DNA of 63,995 bases, the filler included, from Blastocystis sp. subtype 4 (lineage: Eukaryota): assembly GCF_000743755.1 (NCBI RefSeq). It is 39 parts of 39 records of this genome, joined end to end, with 100 filler letters (N's around TTAATTAATTAA, not from the genome) between each part and the next. Parts side by side here need not be neighbours in the genome. Positions count along the whole stretch, not along the records: positions 7,140 to 8,612 come from NW_014568731.1; 38 more parts are not named here. One strand, given 5' to 3'. The translations under genes were made by a program, and so were the position numbers. The notes beneath the pieces are model-generated. The model was not told the DNA's origin and did not search any database. It saw only the letters and a program-made list of their open reading frames with translations. Below are positions 3,983 to 62,096 of the stretch, piece by piece (position 1 is the first letter of the stretch; each line of letters begins with the position of its first letter).

Positions 3983-5465
3983 TACTAGTTGTGTTGAATC
4001 TCTGATTATTGATGATCATTTCAATCCTGATATATCATCATTGATACTGAACTATTCATTGATATCATTGAAACGAATTGACATTGGACATGATTGTTTT
4101 GAGAATGTGAGTCGATTTGAGATTGATGAATTGAATGAATTGGAGACTATCATCATCGGACAGAAGAGTTTCAAACTCGATGATGATGATACTGGAGAAT
4201 GTTTGATAATGAATTGTGATCATTTGAAACACATCAACATTGATAGGAAGTCATTCAAGTATTATGAATCATTTGAATGTAAGAATCTTCCTTCTCTCAT
4301 TTCTATTCAATTGGATGATAAAGCGTTCTATAGGTGTCAACGGATAGAATTTGATAGTATGAATGATTGAATGAATGATGAATGAGATCTTATTCGACTT
4401 GAATCCATCATTCTTGGATATGAGGCTCTATATGGTGATGAAGATACTATTAAATGGAATGAATTGATAATGAAGAGTATGAATGAAATGATGATTGATT
4501 GATTAGATCTTCCTTCTCTATCAATGATCAAAGGAGATGGCTACAATTTCTTCCAAATAGGGAAAGTACAATTGGATAGTAATGATTGATGATTGAATTT
4601 GAACTAGATATTCCATCACTGAGTGAAGAAGGAATTAAGATGAGATATGAGGGATTCGAGAATGTGAATGTATTGACCAGTGCGAGTATGATTGGCTTAT
4701 TGTTAATGAATGAGATGCTGATTGTCTTGATAGATTCATTCGGCAGCAAAGTGAGTATCTACTGGTGATAGATGAAGAATACGATTCTAGTAAAGCAAAA
4801 CGGTTTGAATATGCAAATGCACATGATTTGAATGTGTTCGATGCTAACAGCCTGAAAGGAATTGAGAGACTAGAGATTGGTGGTGATTGCTTTATAAAAG
4901 TGAATCGATTTGAGATTGATGGATTGAATGAATTGAAGAGTGTGATGATTGGAAGAGAGAGCTTCAATCGCAATGAAGAGAATAGAAAAGGAAGCAAATG
5001 TTTGATAATGAATTGTGATCAATTGAGTGAAATCCACTTTGGATTCAGTTCATTCTATTGGTATGAATCATTTGAATGTAAGAATCTTCCTTCTCTGATA
5101 TCTATTCTATTGGATGGTTATTCATTCTATGCTTGTCATTTGATAGTATTTGATAGTATGAATGATTGAATGAATGATGAATGAGATCTGATTCGACTTC
5201 AATCCATCATTCTTGGATATGATGCTCTTGAAGGAGATAGCAATGTATTCGGATGAATTGATAATGAAGAGTATGAATGATGGTGATGATTGATTGATGA
5301 GATCTGCCTTCTCTATCTATATTCAAAGGATCTGGCTACAATTTCAGATGGATAGATAAAGTGATCTTGGATAGTAATGATTGATGATTGAATTTGAATT
5401 AGACATTCCATCACTTACTGATGAAGGAATACAGATAGATGACGATTCATTTAAGAGAGTGAGAG
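3983..5465 (+). CDS. BspA-like leucine-rich repeat protein fragment (multi-exon)
   Basis: Repeats such as LKRIDIGHDCFENVSRFEIDELNELETIIIG and NLPSLISIQL. Recurrent ~30-nt introns (GTATGAATGATTGAATGAATGATGAATGAG). Confidence 0.8.
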
Positions 5466-6269: not shown

Positions 6270-6429
6270 AATCACCTAACAATTTGTCTCGAAATGGTAA
6301 AGTGAGCCTTCTATTTTGATTACTTATTTCGAAAGTAACCCTGTATAGCTACCCAGAGTTGGAGGCCTATGTTGATGATGGTTCGTCTGCCTCCAATATG
6401 TATGTGATATACGTCAAAACCCTACTACT
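6270..6429 (-). mobile_element. Degenerate terminal repeat of the Polinton-like element
   Basis: Minus strand reads AGTAGTAGGGTTTTGACGTAT...CATAGGCCTCCAACTCTGGGTAGCTATACAGGG. Confidence 0.7.
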
Positions 6430-7870: not shown

Positions 7871-8277
7871 TGAAAGAGATATTCAGAGGCCTGAGGCCAA
7901 GCGTGCACAGCGGAGGCAGCGGTGCAAGCGCCGCACCTCCTTGTGCTGACGCAATAATTGTATGCTAAATGGTAAAGAAAATGGTCAAATGGTGTGAACA
8001 AAGTTAACACAAACTTTCTAACACTAAAAGATGGTACAGCAAACAGGGTGACGAACAACCACCAAATGTGTGACCGAAATATGGGTTAATTTGTTGTTCA
8101 TATAACTGGATAGAAACACGGAAAGATGGATGGAGTGATGGATGACTGCACCAAAATGACTCAATATGGGGAAATGGAAAATCGACAAAATCAACCCGTC
8201 ACCTTTCCTTAATAATCTAGCTAAAACATCTATATAATCTAGCCAAATCATAGGGAAGAGTGACGGAGTGACGGGTA

Positions 8278-8474
8278 AGTAGTAGGTAATTGACGTATGT
8301 TACGTATTCTTTCAAACAGACAAACCGTCGCAAACATGGGCCTCCAACCCTGGGTAGCTATACACGCTTAACCCTACCAGACAAAATCGCCAGTAAAATG
8401 CAGACAAAAAGGCCCGCAGACATTTTGATCATAATTTGGAAACATATCCAACCCATTTCAACTCAAATCATGGG
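8278..8474 (+). mobile_element. Young terminal repeat (putative TIR) of the Polinton-like element
   Basis: AGTAGTAGGTAATTGACGTATGTTACG...CATGGGCCTCCAACCCTGGGTAGCTATACACGCTTAACCC...AAATCATGGG. Closely similar to 42015-42230, 56739-56954 and 29851-29966. Confidence 0.8.
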
Positions 8475-8738
8475 TATGAATATAGCACAAATTCTTTGTT
8501 GTTTGTTTTATCACAATGAAAGATTTTGACATTAATAAACAGTATGAGATTTCCTAATGATATGATTCAACGATACATTTCAGAAATGATAAGTCACCTA
8601 TTCACAAACTATNNNNNNNNNNNNNNNNNNNNNNNNNNNNNNNNNNNNNNNNNNNNTTAATTAATTAANNNNNNNNNNNNNNNNNNNNNNNNNNNNNNNN
8701 NNNNNNNNNNNNTTCGTTGATATTGAGAAAAGAAAGAA

Positions 8739-8809
8739 TGCAATAGCCGGGAATCGAACCCGGGCCTGATCCGTGGCAGGGACCTATCTTACCACTTGAC
8801 TACTATTGC
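8739..8809 (-). tRNA. tRNA-Gly(GCC)
   Basis: GCAATAGTAGTCAAGTGGTAAGATAGGTCCCTGCCACGGATCAGGCCCGGGTTCGATTCCCGGCTATTGCA: acceptor stem, GCC anticodon loop, GTTCGA T-loop, and a downstream T-tract. Confidence 0.96.
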
Positions 8810-15978: not shown

Positions 15979-17464
15979 CCTGAGAAGGAATTCCTGAGAT
16001 GATTCCAGTAGATGAATTGAGAGATAGACCTATTGGTAGTGATCCTGATGTAATCGAGAATGATAGTTCATCTCCATCAACAGTGGGAATGATAGAGAAT
16101 ATATTACTCTTTGCCAGAATAAATGAAGATTGAGGATAAGAGAATGAAGAGATGGGAGTGATAACAGTGAATGAAAGAACAACAGTTTCAATTGCTGTTC
16201 CACTCACTGCTTCAATTGTGACTGATTGAGAAGAGAGTAATTGAGAAGGAGATCCAGAGATGACTCCAGTTGATGGATTGATAGATAGACCAATAGGAAG
16301 TGATCCTGAGACAATGGAGATAGTAGAGACTTTGGTGATATTGGGAGTGATAGAGAAGGATAGTCCTTGACCAATGATGAGATTGGTTTGAGGATATGAG
16401 ATGAGAGATGAAATGATCTCAATTGATACAATACGGATGAGAGTTCTTGAATCAGAAATGGCAGTGATATTGTAAGAAGAGAAAGAAAGAGAAGTGAGAG
16501 TTCCAGAGATAGTACAAGTAGTACGATTGAGAATGAGTCCTTGAGGAAGAGAAGGAGTGATGTGACAGTTCATAACACCATTCATATCAATAGTGAATGA
16601 GATGGATTGATGAATGAGAAATGAATAGGAAGATGAAGGAAGAAAGATTCGACGAATGAATATACAATGATCCAACTTGACTTCACCCAATACACCTCCA
16701 GAACACTCACGATATGAATATCCACTGTAACCCTCAGGACAAGAAGAAGGAGAGATTTGACCTTCACCCACTAAAGGATAGTTGCCAATTGAAGGACACA
16801 CAGATCCTGTTGGCTTACAATAGGCCATATGAACCGAGCCCAAAGTGGTTGTAGTTGAACCAGTATCAGTAACTTCCCATCGATATCTGCGGAATCCAGC
16901 CAAAGCCACAGGAACAGGAATCTGAGGCTTTGTTCGAGAAGTCACAGTCTGATCAACAGCACTCAGAATTGTAATAGTTTCCTCCTCATCATTAGGATTG
17001 GAATAAGCATAGATATCAAAGCCCAAAGAAAAAACAGTATTAGATCCAACTATGTTGAATGAATTCCATTTGCTTCCAACCAGATTCTCAACAGTCCATT
17101 CGATATAGGTTCCAATTGCATTAAGAAGTCTACCAGTAGTGTAAGGATCCAAATCCATGATTCCAGCAAGAGTACCTGAACTGGGATTCGTAGAAGTGAG
17201 AGAAGAATAAGAATCAACAACAGTAGAACAATCTTCAACTCCAAATACTCCAGTAGCATCAAACACAACAGGATCAGAAGACTGAATACATTACTACCTT
17301 CCTCAATTCCAGATGTTGAAAGAATCACATGGAACTTCGAGAACACAGTAGAATCATGATCAGTAATTGATAGACTCAAAGAATCGAAATTATCTTCAAG
17401 ATTGAATCGAGCAACCAGATTTCCATTCAGATAGGCAGCCACTCCTCCAGAATACTTCACTCGA
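15979..17464 (-). CDS. He_PIG surface protein fragment (frame break near 17280)
   Basis: Galactose-binding-like segment, Cys-rich CPEGYSGYSYREC, then Ig repeats (LPIGLSINPSTGVISGSP). Confidence 0.75.
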
Positions 17465-17664: not shown

Positions 17665-18129
17665 AATGTCTATGTAGGATGAGAAGGAAATGATTATTGG
17701 ATTTCAACTGTTTTATAAAAGGGTTAGATAGTAACATCAATGAGATGATTGGTTTCTTCGATTTTTGTGGTCAAGAAGGATAATCAGCATCATAGTTGTC
17801 GCTTATTGACACTATTCATTATAGATTGAGCAGGCAAACGAACCAGATCACGAGTCTCGAACCCTAGGTATCTATATAGCGTAATTGTACGAAATATGAT
17901 CAATAATTGAAGACTCACTATACTATTTCAAGCCAAAAGCCGAAACAGTGGCCTAGTAACTCGCTCAACCGTAGACTGAGCAATAAGAATAAAATTACAG
18001 CCCTACAGGCTGGTTCAAGCAGTTGAACTGTTGTTAATTGTTAACAACAGTCAACTGCCTGCGTAAGAACTAGAATAATCGTTAAAACAAATAGAATGGA
18101 ATATCGTAATCAGAGAATACAACGGTATA

Positions 18130-18259
18130 TATGAAATGGTAAAGTTACCTTTCATTTGCTTGCATCTTCCCTGTAGAGCTTCCAGGATTGGAGGCTCATG
18201 TTGGCAACGGTCCACCCTATACAAATTATGTACATGATAAGGGTCAACTACTTGCTACT
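18130..18259 (-). mobile_element. Degenerate terminal repeat of the Polinton-like element
   Basis: AGTAGCAAGTAGTTGAC...CAACATGAGCCTCCAATCCTGGAAGCTCTACAGGG. Confidence 0.6.
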
Positions 18260-20651: not shown

Positions 20652-22089
20652 ACTCTCTTCTCAATCAGTCACAATCGAAGCAATGAGTGGAACAGCAATT
20701 GAAACTGTTGTTCTTTCATTCACTGTTATCACTCCTATCACTTCATTCTCTTATCCTCAATCATCCTATATTCTATCAAGAGATGATCCTGTTTCAATCA
20801 TTCCTACAGTCAATGGAGATGATCCTTCCTTCTCTATCACATCTGGATCTCTTCCTATTGGTCTATCTCTCAATCCGTCAACTGGAGTCATATCAGGAAC
20901 TCCTTTTCTATCAGTATCATCTCAAACGGTTACTATCAAAGCATCAAATGAATTGAGTCATCAATCTATCTCACTCACATTCACAGTACTCGTTTCTATC
21001 TCTTCATTCTCATATCCTCAATCATCCTTTGTTCTGACAAAGAATACTCCATTTTCCATCTCTCCTTCTGTTGATGGAGATCAACTCTCATTCTCTATTT
21101 CATCAGGATCACTTCCTGTTGGACTCTCGCTCAATCCTTCAAATGGAATTATCTCAGGAAACCCTTCTCAATTTGTGTCATCTCAATCAGTTACAATCAA
21201 AGCATCAAATGAAGTGAGTGATCAATCATTCTCTATTTCATTCACTGTTCTCACTCCCATCTCTTCATTCTCATATCCTCAGACTTCCTATATCCTATCA
21301 GCTGGTGTATCATTCTCTATTACTCCCACTATCAATGGAGATGATCTATCATTCTCTATCATATCAGGATCACTTCCTTATGGATTGTCACTCAACTCTA
21401 CAACAGGAGTCATATCTGGAACTCCTTCTCAATCAGTATTACCTCAACCAGTTACTATCAAAGCATTCAATGAAGTGAGTGATCAATCTGTTGCTATCAT
21501 AATCACCATTCTCACTCCCATTTCTTCATTTTCATATCCTCAATCATCTTATGTTCTATCAAGAGATGATCCTGTTTCAATCATTCCTTCAATCAATGGA
21601 GATGAACTCTCATTCTCTATCACATCTGGATCTCTTCCTATTGGTCTATCTCTCATTTCATCAACTGGAATGATATCAGGAACTCCTTCTCAATCAGTAT
21701 CATCTCAATCAGTCACAATCAAAGCATTCAATGAAGTGAGTGATCAATCATTCTCTCTTTCATTCACTATTCAACTCATTCCTTCATCTCTCAACTACAA
21801 TCAAACCATCTTCATCATTCAAAACAACATCCACTTCAGTACAACTCCCACCTGTGAAGGAGATGATCTGTCATTCTCCATTATCTCTGGATCTCTTCCT
21901 ATTGGTCTATCTATCGATTCATCAACAGGAATCATATCTGGAACTTCTCTATCTTCAATTCCTCTCACAAACATCACCATTCAAGCATCCAATCAAGTCG
22001 GATCAACTCAATTCACAATCTCCATTCTAGTCATTATTCCTCTATCCAATCTTCATTATTCTCAATTCTCATTCACTCTCATCAAAGGA
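20652..22089 (+). CDS. Tandem He_PIG (putative Ig) repeat region of a surface protein
   Basis: About five 87-aa units (SFSYPQSS...GSLPIGLSLNPSTGVISGTP). Confidence 0.85.
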
Positions 22090-29239: not shown

Positions 29240-29379
29240 GTTGTTGTTAATTACCCACTAATTTGATTCGAAATGATAAAGCGAGGATTCCATTTTTGTC
29301 ATTTTCCTGTATAGCTACCCAGTGTTAAACGTCCATGTTGGTGAAGGTTTGTACATGATATACATCAATTACCACTACT
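29240..29379 (-). mobile_element. Degenerate terminal repeat of the Polinton-like element
   Basis: AGTAGTGGTAATTGATGTAT...CAACATGGACGTTTAACACTGGGTAGCTATACAGG. Confidence 0.7.
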
Positions 29380-29850: not shown

Positions 29851-29966
29851 TGGCGTTTTTGTCTGGTAGGGTTAAGCGTGTATAGCTACCCAGGGTTGGA
29901 GGCCCATGTTTGCGACGGTTTGTCTGGTTGTAAACAATACGTATCATGCTTCAATTACCTACTAGT
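29851..29966 (-). mobile_element. Young terminal repeat (partial)
   Basis: ACTAGTAGGTAATTGAAGCATGATACG...CATGGGCCTCCAACCCTGGGTAGCTATACACGC. Confidence 0.8.
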
Positions 29967-30180: not shown

Positions 30181-31060
30181 AGTAGTAGCAGTTAACGACA
30201 TATTATTATGGGGTATACTACCAAAAAGGGTTTCCAACCCTGGGAATCTACATGGAAATCACAAAAAGATGGTAAGTTCACTTTACTATTTCGAATCATG
30301 TTGGTGGGTGATAAACAACTGAGTCATTGTGTCTATTCTCCCATTCATGAAAACGTGTTGCTCAATAATCATTAATGGCAAACAACAAATGGTCCATTCA
30401 CTGGAGATATTATGTACATTAGAATCCTTTCATTACAATCAAGAAAGTACTACTAACACCATATTCAGATGCCCTATTCTCAAATATTGATCACATCAAT
30501 ACTGTTTCTAATACTAAATGAGAATTTGTTGTTTGATTAATGATACTCTATCTCACATCATTGCTATTCTCCATCAAATGCATTACGCATTATTCTCATT
30601 ATCCAGTGTTGTTTGCTGTTACCGTTGTATTTACATTGATTCCAATTGTACAATGTGAATACAACCATAACAGATGTTGATTGATAGAAACAGAATAGAA
30701 CACTGATAACAATCCTAAAGTATTTTTAGGACTGAGGGATTGATATGAATGATGAACTGTAATGAAATAATATGTGAATTGTACATTAATGAGAATTGCT
30801 TCTGAATATCATTGAATCACTTCTTTACGCTCATTATCCTGAATCAATGTTCATTAGAGATGGATTTGTGAATGAGGTGTAGTTACTCTTCATGATGTAT
30901 ACCTCACACTAACGTAATGTATGACATTAGTATGCATCAATATGAGAACAGATAAGTGAGTGATAAACAAAGAAGATGCTGCAGTGAACAAGATGTATTG
31001 ATCATTAGATAGTATCTGTCAGATGGATTTGAATGGACAAGAGGTTGATAGTATGATTGA
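30181..31060 (+). mobile_element. Degenerate non-autonomous derivative: terminus, truncated penton-like gene (30353-30660), shared internal segment
   Basis: AGTAGTAG...TTCCAACCCTGGG, then CACATCATTGCTAT...ATTGATTCCAATTGTACAATGTGAAT, then sequence shared with 39850-40245. Confidence 0.65.
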
Positions 31061-38950: not shown

Positions 38951-39476
38951 GATTATTTGGCTGTCAGGATAAATGTTCAGTATCTGATATACACTGTTAA
39001 GGACAATGCTTTGAATACATCCAGAAACAGTTTATTCGTGCTTATGAAGCAATATGAAATGAGAAATGATTGTCTATTATCCTTTTAGTGTCAAAAGCAC
39101 ACTGATCTGTTGAGAGATGGCAATAACGGTATCGAAGAATAGAAATCAATGTGATTGTGTATAATGCTCATACTAAGAGGTGATTTGATTCTTCGTTTCG
39201 TCAATAATCATAATGAGGAACTTCAATGTCTTTGCTGGTATTAACAATACCTAAATCATCTTAGAACGATAGAGATGAGCAGTTAATACTAATCATGCAC
39301 AACCAAGTATGTCGCCAAAATGAATCTTCAATCCTTAATAGCAATAAATGGAAATGTGAAGAAAATGGTAGGCTATGCTCATCATTACGAGCTGCATTGG
39401 GGTGAATAAACGAATTGTTTTAGTATATTCTAATCGAATGTAGGTGGATGGTAACAGGGTATGTAGAAGATACACA
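38951..39476 (+). repeat. Segment duplicated (inverted, near-identical) at 59539-60078
   Basis: GATTATTTGGCTGTCAGG...GAAGATACACA matches the reverse complement of the start of that contig. Confidence 0.9.
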
Positions 39477-39534
39477 ACTATTCTTCATAATTCTCGTCAC
39501 ATCATGTGAATGTGTTTATTCTTCATTCATTAAG

Positions 39535-40245
39535 ATGTATTAATCAATAATCATTCAAGACTAATCATCTAATAGATCATTCATTTGGAACAATCCTTAT
39601 CGATTCAATAATCATTTCATTACATACATCAAAGTACTTCACACCTCTTCAAATACACTCTTTACAAACATCAATCAATTCAATACTCTCTTCAATATCA
39701 AATGTGAATCAATCATATTTGATAAACGATACTATACTCTACCTCACATCATTGATATGATCAATCAAGTACAATACACATCAATCTCAATATCCAATTC
39801 TGTATCCAGTTATGGTTGTATTCATATTGATTCCAGTTGTACAATGTGAATGAAGAACAAGTGATTATGATTGATAGAAACAGAACAGGATACTATATGA
39901 TAACAATCCTAAATGATTGATATGAGACTGAAGAATTAACATGAATGTTGTGGTGATGTGTTGAGCTGATATAGAGTGGTGAGAATGCCTTCTGAATATC
40001 ATTGAATCACTTCTATACAGTCGATTTCCTGAATGATTATTCATTAGAGATGATGTTGTTAATGAAGTGTAGTTTCTCTTTATGACGTATACCTCACACC
40101 GATATAATGTATGCCTAAAGTATACACCAATATAAGAACAAATAAGTGATGATAAACAAAGAAGATGCTGCAGTGAACAAGATGTGTTGATCATTCGATA
40201 GTATCTGTCAGATGGATTTGAATGAACAAGAGGTTGATAGTATGA
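39535..40245 (+). mobile_element. Truncated penton-like relic plus shared internal segment
   Basis: ATG..TCAATAATCATTCAAG...CCTTATCGATTCAATAAT...GGTTGTATTCATATTGATTCCAGTTGTACAATGTGAAT. Abuts a He_PIG module at 40245-40418. Confidence 0.65.
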
Positions 40246-40518
40246 TTGAAGATAAGAGAATGAAGAGATAGAAGTGATAACAGTGAATGAAAGAACAACA
40301 GTTTCAATTGCTGTTCCATTCACTGCTTCGATTGTGACTGATTGAGAAGAGAGTAATTGAGAAGGAGATCCAGAGATGACTCCAGTTGATGGATTGATAG
40401 ATAGACCAATAGGAAGTGNNNNNNNNNNNNNNNNNNNNNNNNNNNNNNNNNNNNNNNNNNNNTTAATTAATTAANNNNNNNNNNNNNNNNNNNNNNNNNN
40501 NNNNNNNNNNNNNNNNNN

Positions 40519-42014: not shown

Positions 42015-42230
42015 CCATGATTTGACTTGAAATGGGTTGGATATGTGTTCCAAATTATGATCAAAATGTCTGCCTTTTCGAGCTTGTTTATGGGCCTTTT
42101 TGTCTGCATTTTAGTGGCGTTTTTGTCTGGTAGGGTTAAGCGTGTATAGCTACCCAGGGTTGGAGGCCCATGTTTGCGACGATTTGTCTGGATAATAACA
42201 ATACGTAACATACGTCAATTACCTACTACT
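42015..42230 (-). mobile_element. Young terminal repeat (putative TIR)
   Basis: AGTAGTAGGTAATTGACGTATGTTACG...AAATCATGG. Confidence 0.82.
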
Positions 42231-42250: not shown

Positions 42251-42405
42251 AGTATCGTTTTGATGTATATTATATTCAAATTGGAAGCAGACAAAACTGT
42301 CACCAACATGGGTCTTCCAACCCTGGGTAGTTATAGAGGGAAATGGCAAGAAGATGGAAGGCTCACTTCCATTTCAAGTCAAATTGTTAGGTGATTAACA
42401 ACAAG
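42251..42405 (+). mobile_element. Degenerate terminal repeat, back-to-back with the previous one
   Basis: AGTATCGTTTTGATGTAT...CAACATGGGTCTTCCAACCCTGGGTAGTTATAGAGGG. Confidence 0.65.
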
Positions 42406-42569
42406 TTTGATAAGTTTGAACATTTGAATGTGAGACAGATGAAAATGATTGAACGAGAAGAAGAGTGTAGAAGCTAAGGATTGGATGAATTTGAATTGAT
42501 GATTGTACCATTATTGATATTTGTTGTTGAGATATTAGATACAGATAGGAGAAATCGAGTGTATTGAAG

Positions 42570-43021
42570 CCATTCACTGATATTCAGAAGGCATTCTCAC
42601 CACTGTACATCAATTCAAACATCACTACAATTCATCATTCATATCAATTCTTCAATCTCATATCAACCTGTTAGAAATGTTCAAATAGTGTTCTGTTCTG
42701 TTTCCATCAATCACAATCTCTTGCTTCACACTGAACAATTGGAATCAATGTGAATACAACCATAACTAGCAGTATTGGATAATGAGAATGATGTGTGTTG
42801 TATTTGATTGAGCATAGCAATGATGTGAGATAGTATAGTATCTTTTATCAAACATGATTGATTCACATTTGGTACTGAATTGATGTTTGAAAGAGTGCGT
42901 TTGAAACATGTATGAATAGTACTTTGATGAATATAATGAATGGATTGTTGAGTCAATAGAATTGTTTCAAGTAAATGATCCATTTGATTGTTTGTCTTGA
43001 ATGACTATTGAGTAAATACAT
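42570..43021 (-). mobile_element. Truncated penton-like relic plus shared internal segment
   Basis: SHIIAMLNQIQHTSFSLSNTASYGCIHIDSNCSV, then the same downstream segment as 39850+. Confidence 0.65.
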
Positions 43022-46527: not shown

Positions 46528-47897
46528 AAAGAGAGAATGATTGATCACTCACTTCATTGAATGCTTTGATTGTTACTGATTGAGATGATATTGATTGAGA
46601 AGGAGTTCCTGAGATCATTCCAGTTGATGAATTGAGAGATAGGCCAATAGGAAGAGATCCTGAAGTGATAGAGAAAAAAGGATTCGTCCCTTGCTTTTCT
46701 GGTGAGACAGAATAGTCTTCTCCAAGAGAAAGGATATAAGAAGTCTGAGGATAAGAGAACGAAGAGATAGGAATTAGAACAGAAAATGAAAGAGAATACG
46801 TTCGATTACTCACTTCATTGAATGCTTTGATTGTAACGGATTGAGATGACACTGAATGAGAAGGAATACCTGATATCATTCCATTTGATGAGTTAAGCAA
46901 CAGACCAATAGGAAGAGATGCTGATGAAACAGAGAACGATAAGTTATCTCCAGTAACCGTAGGAGTGATGAAGAATGATTCATCTATTGATAGGGTATAC
47001 GAAAACTGAGGATATGAGAATGAAGAGATAGGAGTGAGAACAGTGAATGAAAGAGAGAATAATTGATTCTCCAATTCATTAGATACTTTGATTGTTACTG
47101 ATTGAGATGATACTGATTGAGAAGGAGTTCCTGATATCATTCCATTTGAAGAATTGAGTGAGAGTCCAACTGGAAGAGATCCGAATGTAGTCAAGAATGA
47201 AAGCTCATCTCCATCAACAGTAGGAGAGATACAGAATGGACTGTTCTTTGACAGAACATAAGATGATTGAGGATAAGAGAATGAAGAGATAGAAGCGAGC
47301 ACTGTGAACGCAAGTGAGATAGTTTGATTACTCACTTGATTGAATGCTTTGATTGTTACTGATTGAGATGATACTGATTGAGAAGGAGATCCTGATATCA
47401 TTCCAGTTGATGAATTGAAAATCAAACCAGTAGGAAGCAATCCTGATATGATAGAGAAAGACTGCTCATCTCCATCAACAGTAGGAGAGATACAGAATGG
47501 ACTGTTCTTTGACAGAACATAAGAAGATTGAGGATAAGAGAATGAAGAGATAGAAGCGAGCACTGTGAACGCAAGTGAGATAGTTTGATTACTTACTTTA
47601 TTCGATGCACTGATTGTAACTGATTGAGATACGACAAACTGAGAAGGAGTTCCTGATATGACTCCGTTTGATGGATTGAAAGATAATCCAGTAGGAAGAG
47701 ATCCTGATGTGATAGAGAATGAGACCTCATCTCCATCAACAGTAGGAATGATAGAGAATGGATGATTCTTTGTGAGAAAATAAGATGATTGAGGATATGA
47801 GAATGAAGAGATAGGAGTGATAACAGTGAATGAAAGAACAACAGTTTCAATTGCTGTTCCACTCACTGCTTCGATTGTGACTGATTGAGAAGAGAGT
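46528..47897 (-). CDS. Tandem He_PIG repeat region
   Basis: About five 87-aa Ig-like units. Confidence 0.85.
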
Positions 47898-50931: not shown

Positions 50932-53142
50932 CAACTTGACAAACCTGATCCCGATAGATAGTTGCTAACACTTGATATTTCCAGGAATTGAAGATAAAGT
51001 ACTGATTAACAGAGATACCAATACGCGAGTCAGTATCTCTCAGATAAGTGAGAATGTCCTTATCTGCTATATTACAGAGACGATTGATTTCAATTATGGA
51101 GACGAGCGGATTCTTCGCAGTTAATAACTTCCGAATATCTTTCTTCACTAAATAGATGAACTTTTGCGTTTCAGGATCCAATGTTGTCTTCATATCTACC
51201 TTCAAATCAAGATGATCATAGAATAGACTATATAGATGCTTTGAAGTCCTTTTGAATAGCCCCTTATCATCAATAAACAATTGACCAATCTCCTTTTGAT
51301 TCAGAAAGAATAATCCATCTCCTTCTCGGGCATGACTCATGTAATAGTCTCGAATACTTCTCAACAGAGGAATTACATCCATCTGAAGAGTAGTGTCAGC
51401 TTGACAAATAGCGATTCCTTGAACCAATGGTTGAAGATAATATACTGTTCTCAGAAGCTCCCTTTTATCAATCTTTCCCATTGAAGCCATGAATTCATTC
51501 TTCTTTTGTTTGCTGTAGGCAGTAGGGTTCTGTTTCATATCCTTATATAAAGCTTTCATAGACTCATACAATGAATAGAATCTTCTCATAACTAAAACTG
51601 CACTATACCACCGCGTTTCACAGTATGATAGGAGTTTATATCGCCTATTCCTCTTTCTCTTAGGAATCCAAAGATCAGGAACAGCAATACAACTATCGTT
51701 AGCGTCACTAGAATCGCTGGAGTCATCCCCTGAGTCATTAGGGAGAGTACTGTCTTTGATATCATTATTCATACTAGTATCATCAATCCATATGTGCTCC
51801 ATTTCATTCCTTTCGTAGAGTGATTCACGGACATACTGAACGATTGGTCCTTCATCAAGATTACCTATAGATAATTAAACAATCCAAGAAATACTCCTAT
51901 TCTCATAACACCAGGACCACTCAAGGATCTGAGGAATTGGCTCAAACGGTGAGATTTGTTGGAATTCCATCATCTTGTTGTAGAGAATCTTGGAGGATAA
52001 TACACAGGCATTTGCTTCACGCACCTAATAATGAGAGAGATAACCATCACGGACATTATTCCAAAGAGTCTTTAGAGGCTCCTGTTTCAACATCTTCTTG
52101 AGTATTCCATTCAGATAATGTGATACACAAGGAATACGAGGTATACTCCTTCCACAATAAGCTTTCACAAAATCCTCTGTTCCTCGCATGACACTACAGT
52201 TGTCTGTTGCATATGCAACAACATCAAGGCCCAGTTTAGTTAACTCCTTCACTTGATCAGCTATTGCCTTCCCAACATCACTAGATGCTCTTGTTTCCAT
52301 ACTAATACTGTCCCAAAAGAAAACGTTCACCCCTCTCATATCAATATCACTATCTGCTGCTAACACGAAATTGTAATAAGAACAATGATTCTTCCTCATC
52401 TCATCAACAACTAGAGTCACTTTACAACCCATTAGTTGATTCACAACAAAATCCATCACCTTCTTTGCAGTATGAGGAAGCAGCTTATTACAGAATGTCG
52501 TCGAACTTACTCTACGAAACTCCGGCGCACAAGATTCCATGAATATTCTCCACCAAGGAGAATCCAACAGAGATAGCGACAAATTGGCATTTGAAGCAAA
52601 TAACACCAAATCATCATTGCTAGTAGCAGTTCGTTTCACGTAGTGATCCATTGTTCCTTCTTCCTGATGAGTCTAGAGGTTGTGAACGAATCACAATTAT
52701 ACTCGTTTTATAGATTTCATGCCACAAACGACATCAATACTATTATTCATCATCTTAGTGTTGTAGGTGCTCACAATCTACTATTAACTCTATTCCAAAA
52801 TGTTACATCCCTTATTGTAACTGAGTAAATGGAATAATCACTCGAGAAATGGTTTTGATATGGTTGATGCATTTCTTCTTATCCGCAGAAATCAGTTTCT
52901 TACATATGAAACCTGCAATTGAACATAGCATACAGTCACATACATGTTACTTTACATTTATTTCTCTTTGAATATAGAATCATCCTCTTATCCCCAGAGA
53001 ATACCTCAATATACTTATCATCTGGCATACTCCTAGGATCAGTAACCATAACTCTGCCATAATTGACTAAGATGTCTGATACAATCTCCGATGAAGGTAG
53101 TTCCACTCCCCTTTTCTCTAAACAAGTCTTTAGGAGTTCCAT
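50932..53142 (-). CDS. hAT-superfamily transposase-derived protein with introns, 3'-truncated
   Basis: BED-like CFIC..H, TLVVDE, YATDN, CxxH (PCVSH), ETRWYS. Confidence 0.8.
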
Positions 53143-56469: not shown

Positions 56470-56692
56470 CGATTATGTCAGCTAGAGTATAATATCCTTT
56501 CTCAAATACTACAGATTCTCCTTTATCATTAGATACAGTATTGGTTTGATCAATGTTTGAAAAGAGTGAATCTGAATTTGGTGTTAATAGTACTTTCATC
56601 ATAGTAATGTATGGATTATTGAAACGATAAGGATTCTCTCATGTGAATGATCCATTTGATGGTTTGCCTTGAATGATTATTGAATAATGCAT
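56470..56692 (-). pseudogene. Penton-like gene 5' part, least decayed copy (single in-frame TGA)
   Basis: MHYSIIIQGKPSNGSFT*ENPYRFNNPYITMMKVLLTPNSDSLFSNIDQTNTVSNDKGESVVFEKGYYTLADII. Starts ~47 nt inside the terminal repeat. Confidence 0.7.
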
Positions 56693-56738
56693 TTATTGCT
56701 AGAAAGAATTAACGACAACATTCTTGTTCTTATTGTTG

Positions 56739-56954
56739 CCCATGATTTGACTTGAAATGGGTTGGATATGTTTCCAAATTATGATCAAAATGTCTGCCTT
56801 TTCGAGCTTGTTTATGGGCCTTTTTGTCTGCATTTTACTGGCGTTTTTGTCTGGTAGGGTTAAGCGTGTATAGCTACCCAGGGTTGGAGGCCCATGATTG
56901 CGACGATTTGTCTGTATGTTAAGAATACGTAACATACGTCAATTACCTACTATT
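56739..56954 (-). mobile_element. Young terminal repeat (putative TIR)
   Basis: AATAGTAGGTAATTGACGTATGTTACG...AAATCATGGG. Confidence 0.82.
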
Positions 56955-57109: not shown

Positions 57110-57940
57110 TTCTCTCCTCTTAAATGTACATATTCTTCTGTTGAATGAATCGATTAAGAGAATCAGCATCTCATTCATTATCAATCAATCAATCATACTT
57201 GAACTATGCAATTCTCTTACCCCTTCAAATGGTTTATCTCCGTAATATTCCATCTCAATTCCTTCTTCACTCAGTGATGGAATGTCTAATTCAAATACAA
57301 TCATCAATCATCACTATCCAAGATCACTTTCACTATGTACTTGAAATTGTAACCATCTCCTTTAAGTGTAGATAGAGAAGGAAGATCTCATCAATCAATC
57401 ATTGTCATTCATACTCTTCATTATCAATTCATTCGTTTCTCTTGTATAATCACCATATAGAGCCAATGATCCAAGAATGATGGATTGAAGTCGATTCAGA
57501 TCTTATTCATCATTCATTCAATCATTCATACTCTCAAATACTATCCGTTGACAATTCTTAAATGCATAACCATCCAATTGAATGGATATCAGAGAAGGAA
57601 GATTCTTCAATTCAAATGATTCATACCAATAGAATGATCTGTATCCAATGTTGATGTCACTCAATTGATCACAATTCATTATCAAACATTTGCTTCCTTC
57701 TCTATTAACCCAATCAAGACAGAAGCTGTTCTTTCCAATAACCAAAGTCTTCAATTCATTCAATCCATTAATCACAAATCGATTCACATTCTTAAAACAA
57801 TCATGTCCAATCTCAATTCGTTTCAATGATATCAATGAATAGTTCAATATCAATGATGATATATCAGGATTGAAATGATCAGCAATAATCAGAGATTCAA
57901 TACAACTAGTAACAATCAATTCACAATCATCAATCCATTT
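57110..57940 (-). CDS. BspA-like LRR protein fragment
   Basis: Paralog of 3983-4760 with the same short introns. The 3' end is approximate. Confidence 0.75.
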
Positions 57941-58040: not shown

Positions 58041-59438
58041 AGTAGGAAGAGATCCTGATATGATTGAGAATGAGAGTTCATCTCCATCAACAGTAGGAGA
58101 GATAGAGAATGATTCACCAGCAGATTGAACATATGTAGACTCAGGATAAGAGAATGAAGTGATGGATTGAAGAACAGTGAATATGAGTATGGCAGGCTGA
58201 TCACTTACTTCATTGAATGCTTTGATAGTGACTGATTGAGATATGACAGATTGAGAAGGAGTTCCTGATATCATTCCATTAGAAGGATTGAAAGATAGAC
58301 CAGTAGGAAGTGATCCTGATATGATTGAGAATGAGAGTTCATCCCCATCGATTGAAGGAGAGATAGAGAATGGATCATATTTGGATAGAGTATATGTAGA
58401 ATTAGGATAAGAGAATGAAGTGATGGATTGAAGAACAGTGAATGAAAGAGAGAATGATTTATCATTACTCACATCATTGAATGCTTTGATTGTGACTGAT
58501 TGAGATAAGACAAACTGAGAAGGAGTTCCTGATATCATTCCATTTGAAGGATTGAAAGATAAACCAATAGGAAGAGATCCAGAAGTAATAGAAAATGAAG
58601 GTTCATATCCATCAACAGTAGGAGAGATAGAGAATGGATCATTCCTTTTCAGAACATATGTAGAGTCAGGATATGAGAATGAAGTGATGGATTGAAGAAC
58701 AGTGAATGAAAGAGAGAATGATTTATCATTACTCACATCATTCGAGGCTTTGATTGTGACTGATTGAGATAAGACAAACTCAGAAGGAATTCCAGAGATG
58801 ACTCCAGTTGAAGGATTGAGAGACAAACCAGTAGGAAGAGATCCTGATGAGGTAGAGAATGATAAATCATCTCCATCGATTGAAGGAGAGATAGAGAATG
58901 GATCATTCCTTGATAGAACATACGTAGAATTAGGATAAGAGAATGAAGTGATGGATTGAAGAACAGTGAATGAAAGAGAGAATGATTTATCATTACTCAC
59001 ATCATTCGAGGCTTTGATAGTAACTGATTGAGATATGATGAATTGAGAAGGAGTTCCTGATATCATTCCAGTTGTTGAATTGAGAGACAAACCAGTAGGA
59101 AGAGATCCTGATGAGGTAGAGAATGATAAATCATCTCCATTGATTGAAGGAGAGATAGAGAATGGATCATTCCTTGATAGAACATACGTAGAATTAGGAT
59201 AAGAGAATGAAGTGATGCGAGTGAGCACCTTGAATGAAAGAGGGAAGGTCTGATTACTTACTTCATTGAATGCTTTGATTGTAACTGATTGAGATATGAT
59301 GAATTGAGAAGGAATTCCTGATATCATTCCATTAGAAGAATTGAGAGACAAACCAGTAGGAAGAGATCCTGATGAGATAGAGAATGATAAATCATCTCCA
59401 ATGACAGTAGGAGAAATAGAGAATGGATCATCTTTGGA
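58041..59438 (-). CDS. Tandem He_PIG repeat region with highly homogenised units
   Basis: Near-identical 264-nt (88-aa) units, e.g. at 58456, 58720 and 58984. Confidence 0.85.
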
Positions 59439-60284
59439 NNNNNNNNNNNNNNNNNNNNNNNNNNNNNNNNNNNNNNNNNNNNTTAATTAATTAANNNNNN
59501 NNNNNNNNNNNNNNNNNNNNNNNNNNNNNNNNNNNNNNTGTGTATCTTCTACATACCCTGTTACCATCCACCTACATACGATTAGAATATACTAAAACAA
59601 TTCGTTTATTCACCCCAATGCAGCTCGTAATGATGAACAAAGCCTACCATTTTCTTCACATTTCCATTTATTGCTATTAAGGATTGAAGATTCATTTTGG
59701 CGACATACTTGGTTGTGCATGATTAGCATTAACTGCTCATCTCTATCGTTTCTAAGATGATTTAGGTATTGCTAATACCAGCAAAGACATTGAAGTTCCT
59801 CATTATGATTATTGACGAAACGAAGAATCGAATCACCTCTTAGTATGAGCATTATACACAATCACATTGATTTCTATTCTTCGATACCGTTATTGCCATC
59901 TCTCAACAGATCAGTGTGCTTTTGACATGTGCTTTTGACACTAATAGGATAATAAACAATCATTTCTCATTTCATATTACTTCATAAGCACGAATAAACT
60001 GTTTCTGGATGTATTCAAAGCATTGTCCTTAACAACGTATATCAGATACTGAACATTTATCCTGACAGCCAAATAATCAGGAAGGATCCAATAAATGTAC
60101 ATTTGACTAATAGAATAAAGGACCAAATACCCAATTATGATCCTATAATATGTGCATGTTCAGTAATGTGACATTGTGTTGCTTGTTATTACCTCCACAT
60201 ATTACCTCCACATCGTAGAAACGATGAATGGTGGAATACACTCGCTTGTAGTATAATTCATTTGAGAGAATACTCAAGCAAATA

Positions 60285-62096
60285 TGCGCAAGTACAATAA
60301 AGCAGCTAGGCCTCATCCAGAACCTCACACTACTAACTCCAGCAGCTATCCAGAAGCGACTCCGTATTCCAACAAGAAAGAGAGGTATTGTGAGGGTGAT
60401 TAATCAATGAATAGAGCCATTGGGAACATTGAAAGAGGTTCTTTGACTTCTGAACAATTTGATGTACTCACTACTGTTTTGAAGGGCTATGTTTGTGTTT
60501 GCTGTTGATTCATAATGAGAATGTCTTTTTCACTGGTGAAGCAGGAACTGGAAAGAGTCACTTACTCCGAGTTATTGTAACAGCTCTTCAACAACAACTA
60601 GGAGCCAACCATGTTTATGTGACAGCATCTACAGGCATTGCTGCTAATCACATTGACGGGACCACTATTCACTCCTTTGCAGGAATGACATCTCCTGACA
60701 TTAATCCTGCATACATCTACAAGCAGATACTAAACCAAAGTACCAAGGAAGTGATAAATCACTGGAAGACTTGTGAAGTCTTGATCATCGATGAGATATC
60801 GATGATAGATGGTCGCTTTTTCGATACGCTTGAATACAAAGCCAGACGTGTTCGGAATAACAATCTTCCTTTTGGAGGAATTCAAGTCATTCTTTGTGGT
60901 AGATTCTTTGATATTCACAATCATTCTTAGGAGATTTCTTCCAGTTGCCTCCTGTGGGACTTGACAAGAATGGTGTCAAGTTTGCTTTTGAGGCACATTC
61001 ATGGGATACAGTGATTGAAGTGGACTTTGATTGATAGATTAATAGATAGAAGAAAATGGTACTTACAACCGCTTTCAGGCAACAAGATCAGCGTTTGCAA
61101 AAACTGTTGAGAGATATTCGATATGTAGGATTTGTTTGTCTAGTTGTCAAGATAGGGTCAATGCTCTCAACAATCTTTACAACTCATTGATGAAATGAGT
61201 AATCATGATGTAGATGCGATGCTGAGTAACTCTACACCTGATCATGAAATGGGTGAAGTTGTTGAGGAGATTGGTCAAGAGAGTATGGTAATTGAAAGTA
61301 CTCAGTAGGAACTGGTTGATAGAATAACAACAGTCTATTCGCAAAGAATGATTGAAAGTACTCAGTAGGAACTGGTTGATAGAATAACAACAGTCTATTC
61401 GCAAAGAATGATGAAGCTAATAAGTATAACAAGATGAAGCTAGATGAGTTAAGAGGTTCATCGAAGCCTTACAAAGCTGTTGACAAGGAATGTACAATCT
61501 GTATTGAATTACAACCATAGTTGTTGCTAATGGCATCAAGAAACTGAATAAGCATTGTTTAGCTGCNCAAGTATTGAGATAAAGCAAGGAGCTCAGGTAA
61601 TGCTATTGAAGAATTTGGATTTGAAAATGGGATTGGTGAATGGAGTAAGTGGAAAGGTTATCTCCTTTGCTAGGGATTGTGAAGGCGGTGAATTGTTGCC
61701 TCTGATAAGATGGAAAACGAGAAATGGAGATTTGACCAAGTTGTGTCATCGAGTTGAGTTCAAGATTTCTAAAGAAGGTAAAACGCTTGCATGTCGTTCT
61801 CAACTTCCAAATGAATGAGGAATGTGATCTAGGCATGGGGAGTAACCATTCACAAGGCACAGGGAATGACACTTGAGTACTTAACGATCGATTTATCAGA
61901 TGTGTTTGAATGTGGCATGACGTATGTGGCTATGAGTCGAGGAGTAACTTGTGATCACATGTGTGTGAAAGGATTTAAGAAGGAAGATGTGAAGACGAAT
62001 CCAAGAGTATTAGCATTTGATAAGACAATTCGAGGAGAGAGAGAAGCACCTCATCCTGTTCAATCAGCACCAGTGATTCGTTTATATCCTTTCTAG
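60285..62096 (+). CDS. PIF1: PIF1-family SF1B DNA helicase (multi-exon, with lesions)
   Basis: FFTGEAGTGKS, TASTGIAA, GTTIHSFAG, LIIDEISM, PFGGIQVILCGDFFQLPPV, GAQVMLLKN, TIHKAQGMTL, YVAMSR. Start approximate. Confidence 0.9.

What the first reader, a model, noticed from the sequence alone, without database searches (positions are those of the whole stretch)
8278..8474. Nine copies of one terminus in two age classes, with different interiors
Young, closely similar copies: 8278-8474, 29851-29966, 42015-42230, 56739-56954. Old copies: 6270-6429, 18130-18259, 29240-29379, 30181-30330, 42251-42405. Outer similarity ends at the AGT-type end. After AAATCATGGG, the 8278 and 56739 copies continue into unrelated sequence, as expected for left and right TIRs. 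Two copies sit at contig edges, consistent with collapsed repeats. Suggests at least two waves of activity, one recent.
Basis: partly seen in the sequence, partly recalled or inferred. Interest (0 to 1): 0.75.

Follow-up and report, generated by a model that had tools for sequence, protein, structure and literature searches.

The report
Ends of an integrated Blastocystis virus
These repeats are the matching end sequences of an already described 21.6-kb DNA virus (Blastocystis MELD virus, a Polinton/Maverick-type element) found at many places in the genome of the gut protist Blastocystis, together with decayed ends that likely come from an older relative, so the thing is ordinary in kind but shows that the virus is really integrated in its host.

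Summary
The nine copies are real, and three fainter ones exist (12 in all). The four young copies are 91-97% alike. They are the ~225-245-bp terminal inverted repeats (TIRs) of a Polinton-type endogenous virus. One public gut-metagenome contig carries both TIRs, inverted and 21,617 bp apart. One end leads to a protein-primed DNA polymerase B, the other to a 1019-aa penton-fold minor capsid gene. Window copy 8278 is a polymerase-side end and 56954 a capsid-side end. Four element proteins are letter-identical to the GenBank record 'Blastocystis MELD virus' (Starrett 2021). Near-identical genes recur on several long contigs of Blastocystis ST4 strain BT1. Young TIRs join at least 16 different flanks, and three of these sites are empty in homologous DNA. 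The old copies lack a ~75-bp block, are 50-82% alike and often adjoin broken capsid remnants, so they likely come from an earlier lineage; two short TIR-bounded derivatives exist. No target-site duplication was found. I could not read the middle ~11 kb (integrase, major capsid, ATPase). Verdict: a known virus of a known kind; the evidence for integration and older invasions is a modest addition.

The parts
8278..8484 (+). Young TIR, polymerase-side end of Blastocystis MELD virus; starts AGTAGT; has an 18-bp internal deletion
8485..8612 (+). Start of the virus interior on the polymerase side; first 99-aa ORF begins at 8544; cut by the contig end
   Evidence: 89% to the L010 end over 354 bp; tblastn 97% over 31 aa
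56730..56954 (-). Young TIR, capsid-side end; first bases altered (AAT/AGTAGG)
56470..56692 (-). 5' part of the 1019-aa minor capsid (penton) gene, 96% aa identity, with a premature stop at codon 18; cut by the contig edge
42015..42230 (-). Young TIR cut at the contig start; its outer end lies 20 bp from an old TIR, back to back
29851..29966 (-). Young TIR (outer 116 bp) cut at the contig start; same site present in public contig L024
6261..6429 (-). Old short-type TIR; same site present in L026
5700..6244 (-). Frameshifted remnant of the minor capsid gene, 78% nt to the young gene
17794..18259 (.). 466-bp mini-element bounded by two old TIRs facing inwards (17794-17937 + and 18104-18259 -), with a 46-bp palindrome at 18016-18061; no TSD
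30181..30322 (+). Old short-type TIR, back to back with the young 29966 copy (214 bp apart)
30362..31060 (+). Broken minor capsid gene remnant and adjoining sequence shared with 39511-40249
39307..39405 (+). Extra, very degenerate TIR
   Evidence: E 4e-9
39513..40058 (+). Broken minor capsid remnant with an internal deletion (about aa 105-274) shared with 42527-43015 and L006
42250..42405 (+). Old short-type TIR; with 42406-43015 it forms most of a ~1-kb deleted derivative like L006 (linker 90% identical)
42527..43015 (-). Broken, internally deleted minor capsid remnant
59610..59708 (-). Extra degenerate TIR inside a segmental duplicate (59539-60078 = 38951-39476, 95%)
52776..52971 (+). Empty site: homologous (94-95%) to the flank that carries a young TIR in L005 and L025

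Best explanation
The young repeats are the left and right terminal inverted repeats of Blastocystis MELD virus, a 21.6-kb Polinton-type DNA virus whose ends join many different Blastocystis flanks, and the old repeats are likely decayed ends of an earlier relative. Shown: TIRs of about 225-245 bp that start with (AGT)2, a pPolB gene inside one end, a penton-fold gene inside the other, many flanks, and empty homologous sites. Inferred from known Polinton biology: the TIRs are origins for protein-primed replication, with the AGT repeat serving slide-back initiation, and are the substrates for the retrovirus-like integrase that Starrett et al. report for this virus. Copies that integrate then decay by stops, frameshifts and internal deletion, leaving solo ends and short TIR-bounded pieces. 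Short-read assembly collapses the multi-copy interior and breaks contigs at the TIRs, which is why only ends appear in this window.
For: Geometry: loci L023 and L010 are the two ends of one 24,736-bp contig with inverted TIRs spanning 21,617 bp. The TIRs are 94% identical over 225 columns. Polymerase: the 1602-aa protein has vOTU Cys/His in 19 of 19 aligned homologues and exonuclease/polymerase motifs in at least 18 of 19. It is 55-56% identical to Pfam DNA_pol_B_2-positive homologues, and its model matches MELD-virus and adintovirus PolBs. Capsid: the model of the 1019-aa protein (pLDDT 81) matches the MELD virus sp. penton at 49% identity over its length and the mavirus penton 6g41 at E 3e-6. 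Identity: 4 of the 6 small ORFs looked up are letter-identical to DAC81483, DAC81484, DAC81485 and DAC81497 of 'Blastocystis MELD virus'. Host: six BT1 accessions for the 227-aa gene, seen on contigs of at least four lengths (0.62-0.98 Mb), and pPolB on a 0.98-Mb contig; BT1 is ST4. Sites: 16 distinct young flanks and three empty homologous sites. End motif: (AGT)2 is the reported Maverick end motif.
Against: No exact TSD of 4-6 bp in 153 flank pairings or in 3 two-ended elements. L023/L010 gives AAGTG/AAATG, 4 of 5, but 6 of the 153 pairings reach one mismatch in 5, so this is no support. The integrase, major capsid, ATPase and protease were not seen by me, because the middle ~11 kb could not be read. 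Pfam gives P0001 itself no DNA_pol_B_2 match, and PDB sequence searches were blank. The same flank joins different interiors in L005 versus L025 and in L011 versus L017, so short-read contigs may be chimeric across the TIR, including L023/L010. Empty sites are 94-98% identical and may be paralogues rather than alleles. Two old copies (18259, 29379) have no capsid remnant beside them.
Confidence: 0.93

Rival explanations
1. The repeats are TIRs of a cut-and-paste DNA transposon (hAT or MULE) or its MITEs, carrying captured genes.
For: Long TIRs, many flanks and short TIR-bounded derivatives fit this. A hAT-like ORF (DUF659, E 0.006, below the Pfam cut-off) lies at 52025-52672.
Against: The 5 kb inside each end encode pPolB, a likely ssDNA-binding protein and a penton, and no transposase was recognised there. 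The hAT-like contig carries no copy of the TIR. No exact TSD even of 4 bp was found.
Confidence: 0.02
2. The young TIRs are viral, but the copies reached their sites by host repair or by recombination between TIRs and segmental duplication, not by the viral integrase.
For: No TSD was found. At 56954 and at the L005 site the last 3-11 bases before the TIR differ from the empty homologue. 5 of 17 flanks have an LRR gene reading toward the TIR within 0.5-2 kb, so the regions are repeat-rich. One faint pair is a segmental duplicate.
Against: Most junctions fall exactly at the first AGT. The L012 site matches its empty homologue up to the junction. Starrett et al. report an integrase in the Blastocystis virus. 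TSD tests on short-read contigs are weak because the two flanks of one insertion are rarely linked.
Confidence: 0.2
3. The repeat is a SINE, a non-coding RNA gene, or a promoter shared by a host gene family.
For: It sits just upstream of a recurring ORF. Pieces occur in contigs of two RNA libraries.
Against: No Rfam match. Folding z-scores are only -1.7 and -1.4. The recurring ORF is the viral penton, and the repeat occurs inverted at both ends of one 21.6-kb unit. RNA-library contigs do not show transcription.
Confidence: 0.01
4. The old copies belong to an unrelated family that shares a core motif by chance or convergence.
For: They are only 51-72% identical to the young TIR and lack a ~75-bp block.
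Against: They align colinearly from the AGT end to the inner end. Three of five adjoin remnants of the same capsid gene at 71-79% nt identity.
Confidence: 0.04

Closest known systems
Blastocystis MELD virus (GenBank TPA proteins DAC81483-DAC81497; Starrett et al. 2021, PMC8502044)
   Same: Four proteins from the two ends are letter-identical, in consecutive accession order at the capsid end. The paper describes PolB, integrase and inferred virion genes. The young element is this virus.
   Different: In the passages I read the paper gives no integration sites, TIR anatomy, TSDs or older copies. A 2026 review calls the source of the genome 'unclear' (PMC12835684). I did not see the record's DNA or Figure 5.
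Polintons/Mavericks (class Polintoviricetes)
   Same: [quoted passage not shown]
   Different: The penton is about 1019 aa, against about 300 for the mavirus penton. The 6-bp TSD of vertebrate Mavericks was not found. MCP, ATPase, protease and integrase were not tested here.
MELD virus sp. (DAD57286 penton, A0A8S5L5J7 PolB) and pPolBs in the B. hominis genome
   Same: 49-50% penton identity; 55-56% pPolB identity to CBK20298 and CBK24960.
   Different: These are sister viruses at about 50% protein identity. Their TIRs were not examined.
EMALEs of Cafeteria burkhardae (Hackl et al. 2021, PMC8547959)
   Same: Multi-copy endogenous dsDNA viruses in a heterotrophic stramenopile, with strain-specific sites, often near repeats, and with truncated copies that still carry TIRs.
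   Different: EMALEs are mavirus-type virophages with TSDs mostly of 3-5 bp and a known giant-virus helper. No helper virus is known to me for Blastocystis.

Membership tests
Blastocystis MELD virus | Protein identity with the deposited genome | tested here: met
   4 of 6 small ORFs looked up are exact matches to DAC81483/84/85/97. The 134-aa and 99-aa ORFs, and the pPolB and penton variants looked up, returned no DAC accession among the members listed.
Polinton/Maverick | Terminal inverted repeats of a few hundred bp | tested here: met
   About 225-245 bp, 94% identical, inverted on one contig.
Polinton/Maverick | 5'-(AG)3 or (AGT)2 end motif | tested here: met
   AGTAGT opens 20 of the 25 public termini read (L009 has no terminus) and 2 of 4 young window copies; the other two differ by one base. 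Motif from PMC8097293.
Polinton/Maverick | Length of about 15-25 kb (range recalled) | tested here: met
   21,617 bp between termini; one contig only, possibly chimeric across the TIRs.
Polinton/Maverick | Protein-primed family B polymerase with vOTU domain | tested here: met
   Catalytic motifs conserved, fold matches, homologues carry PF03175. Motif labels are recalled. The terminal-protein domain was not tested separately.
Polinton/Maverick | [quoted passage not shown] | tested here: met
Polinton/Maverick | [quoted passage not shown] | not testable with these tools
   The middle ~11 kb was not obtainable.
Polinton/Maverick | RVE integrase | not testable with these tools
   Reported for the Blastocystis virus in PMC8502044; not seen in the 5 kb at either end.
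Polinton/Maverick | Packaging ATPase and Ulp1-type protease | not testable with these tools
   The middle of the element was not read.
Polinton/Maverick | 5-6-bp target-site duplication | tested here: inconclusive
   0 exact matches of 4-6 bp in 153 pairings and in 3 two-ended elements. The flanks come from different samples, two of the three elements are old, and the third may be chimeric.
hAT/MULE DNA transposon | DDE transposase between the TIRs | tested here: not met
   Viral genes occupy the 5 kb inside each TIR; the middle was not read.
SINE or structured ncRNA | Match to a known RNA family or strong structure | tested here: not met

The most novel reading that the evidence does not exclude
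The virus is still mobile in Blastocystis ST4, integrates without the canonical 5-6-bp duplication and near earlier insertions and LRR-gene arrays, and its older lineage spawned 0.5-1-kb TIR-bounded satellites that were copied in trans: MITE-like parasites of a Polinton. The same capsid deletion recurs at 39513-40058, 42527-43015 and in L006, and the 42250 and L006 copies share their interior but not their outer flank.
Probability: 0.2. Interest if true: 0.6.

Novelty: already known. Interest (0 to 1): 0.3.

Why it matters
The virus and the kind of element are known, so this is not a new system. It still adds something. A 2026 review calls the source of the Blastocystis viral genome unclear, and the long-read Blastocystis genome paper has no main-text mention of Polintons or Mavericks. 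The data here place the virus in ST4 chromosomes in several copies, at variable sites, with traces of an earlier invasion. ST4 is culturable, so it would be a direct system for an open question: whether Polintons excise and form virions, and whether a helper giant virus is needed. The variable junctions could also serve as strain markers.

Tried and rejected
No whole genome is held for the window and the metagenome records are not held for further reading, so the middle of the element was not seen. Blank searches: IMG/VR for the TIR and for pPolB, single and aligned; GTDB genomes for pPolB and the TIR; INPHARED phages for the penton; PDB sequence searches for pPolB; Pfam on the penton and small ORFs, with nothing above cut-off; earlier scan findings. 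TSD pairing found nothing. Free linear ends: none shown; L014's flank looks like a sequencing adapter (recalled) and L009 starts inside the TIR, so both were dropped from flank counts. L004 (truncated, atypical end) was left out of the TSD test but kept in the LRR tally. Expression: two RNA libraries hold patchy contigs over the polymerase end (21 and 17 of 30 bins), but contigs cannot show transcription. Contig depth is higher over the TIR than over the interior and flank in X4 (about 32-41 versus 4-15 versus 2.5); the tool warns this is no copy number, so I do not use it. A Helitron 3' end (short hairpin plus CTAG) and a tRNA-type SINE were considered by eye and dropped once the viral interiors were found. 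Kapitonov and Jurka 2006 could not be read; its claims are cited through PMC8097293 and PMC8547959. Bellas 2023 screened Blastocystis assemblies (Table S1 rows), but the stored file is cut, so a Blastocystis hit in later sheets cannot be excluded.

Full report
Setting. The window is a string of about 39 short contigs (42 N-free segments, mostly about 1.4 kb) joined by N spacers. The best named homologues of a host ABC transporter in it are from Blastocystis. It is rich in repeated gene families, as expected for the collapsed tail of a short-read assembly. No whole genome is held.

The observation. All nine copies are real. Young copies are 91-97% alike. Old copies are 50-82% alike among themselves, 51-72% to the young ones, and all lack a central block of about 75 bp. 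In a tree of 14 copies the four young window copies and two public termini form the one well-supported clade, and the branching of the old ones is unresolved. A profile search adds three faint copies, at 17803, 39307 and 59610, and finds nothing in a reversed control. The last two lie in one segmental duplicate.

What lies inside. A scan of public metagenome contigs with a 24-nt core gave 26 loci. Two of them, L023 and L010, are the two ends of one 24,736-bp contig, in inverted orientation and 21,617 bp apart. The ends share about 225-245 bp at 94% and then diverge. L002, L007 and L010 continue into three small ORFs and a long ORF. The full product is 1602 aa, with vOTU Cys/His, exonuclease and polymerase motifs conserved across 18-19 of 19 homologues (motif names recalled, domain order as in PMC11161782 passages). 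Homologues at 55-56% identity carry Pfam DNA_pol_B_2, though P0001 itself does not score. A model of the first 1175 aa (pLDDT 72) matches MELD-virus, adintovirus and related PolBs. The 163-aa ORF resembles viral ssDNA-binding proteins, which is a lead only. L009, L014, L023 and L025 continue into a 1019-aa ORF (L014 only in part) whose model (pLDDT 81) matches a MELD virus penton over its full length and the mavirus penton crystal structure over one domain. In the window, 8278-8612 is the polymerase-side end and 56470-56954 the capsid-side end. The latter copy has a stop at codon 18 of the capsid gene, so it is young but broken.

Identity. Four small proteins from the two ends are letter-identical to 'Blastocystis MELD virus' TPA proteins DAC81483, DAC81484, DAC81485 and DAC81497. 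Starrett et al. [quoted passage not shown] Cluster members include six BT1 accessions of the 227-aa gene on contigs of at least four lengths, pPolB on a 0.98-Mb BT1 contig, and one gene of the 'Blastocystis sp. subtype 4' genome. BT1 is ST4 and was assembled from long reads. So the host is Blastocystis, most likely ST4, and the virus is chromosomal and multi-copy.

Insertion sites. Young TIRs join 16 distinct flanks among the window and public loci, and two more appear as loose ends in runs X1 and X2. Three sites are empty in homologous DNA: the L005/L025 flank is empty at window 52776-52971, the L012 flank is empty in L005, and the window's 56954 flank is empty in five contigs. These homologues are 94-98% identical, so alleles and paralogues cannot be told apart. 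Two window sites (29966, 6429) recur with identical flanks in public contigs. Against a clean integrase model, no exact TSD of 4-6 bp was found in 153 flank pairings or three two-ended elements. The test is weak: flanks come from different samples, and one flank can join either interior (L005 versus L025, L011 versus L017), which points to chimeric assembly or inversion across the TIR. Two of four young window copies sit back to back with an old TIR (20 and 214 bp away), and 5 of 17 flanks have an LRR gene pointing at the TIR within 0.5-2 kb. I have no genome background for these figures.

Old copies. Three of five, plus the 39307 copy, adjoin capsid remnants at 71-79% nt identity with stops or frameshifts. 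The remnants at 39513 and 42527 and in L006 share one internal deletion. L006 is a ~960-bp unit with short-type TIRs at both ends, and window 17794-18259 is a 466-bp TIR-bounded unit. I infer an earlier sister lineage with shorter TIRs, since reduced to fossils and deletion derivatives. Whether the derivatives moved in trans is open. Truncated elements that keep TIRs are also known among EMALEs (PMC8547959 passages).

Mechanism. Shown: the anatomy, gene content at both ends, many junctions, empty sites and decay. Inferred from Polinton biology: the TIRs act as protein-primed origins and integrase substrates. (AGT)2 is a reported Maverick end motif (PMC8097293 passages); its slide-back role is recalled. 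Untested: the integrase, MCP, ATPase and protease, excision, virions, expression and any helper virus.

Literature. Eight full-text searches turned up no paper on integration sites, TIRs or old copies of this virus; most subscription papers are not covered. Lind 2025 (PMC12129017, passages) has no main-text hit for Polinton or Maverick. Shaw 2026 (PMC12835684, passages) calls the source of the viral genome unclear. A 2022 preprint uses the virus only in a polymerase tree (one passage), and the egovirus preprint discusses polintons of Parabasalia, not of Blastocystis (passages). Bellas 2023 lists Blastocystis assemblies as screened (supplement rows; file cut). Figures and bioRxiv supplements were not visible.

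Verdict. The element is an already deposited Polinton-type virus. The added value is evidence of multi-site chromosomal integration and of older invasions in ST4. Interest 0.3.

Noticed in passing
window 50932-52672 (-): Two ORFs that look like pieces of a hAT-type transposase (DUF659, E 0.006, below cut-off). The empty site of L005/L025 lies just upstream, at 52776-52971.
   Followed up: partly
window 60463-60930 (+): PIF1-like helicase fragment (PF05970, E 2e-31), about 400 bp from the segmental duplicate that carries a faint TIR.
   Followed up: no
runs X5, X7, X3, X14 laid on window 56771-56816: All four runs hold a contig with a diverged 46-bp piece of the TIR next to a GATGTGAATAA simple repeat; possibly a further decayed or sister TIR at a shared site.
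   Followed up: no
L025 and L012 just inside the TIR; loose ends in X2 and X4: A variant of the capsid-side end with about 140 extra bases between the TIR and the capsid gene, so at least two young subvariants exist.
   Followed up: partly
window 18016-18061: 46-bp near-perfect palindrome in the middle of the 466-bp TIR-bounded mini-element.
   Followed up: no
window 7884-8116 versus L005 1863-2099 and L023 1262-1319: A block with a GC-rich stretch upstream of the 8278 TIR recurs (82-83%) in the flanks of two other insertion sites; perhaps another host repeat.
   Followed up: partly
window 15979-16400, 20652-22089, 46528-47897, 58041-59438 and others: Large host protein families with 261/264-bp tandem units (87-88 aa, Ig-like by recall) and LRR arrays (3983-5465, 57143-57940) make up much of the window.
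   Followed up: no
L003 beyond 984 bp inside the TIR: The viral sequence switches abruptly to a bacterial-looking ORF; probably an assembly chimera.
   Followed up: no
protein searches: Many related pPolB and penton clusters at 35-64% identity lie on contigs of 19-24 kb, suggesting numerous sister viruses, probably in other Blastocystis subtypes.
   Followed up: no
window 8739-8809 (-): tRNA-Gly(GCC) gene, on the contig after the finding and unrelated to it.
   Followed up: no
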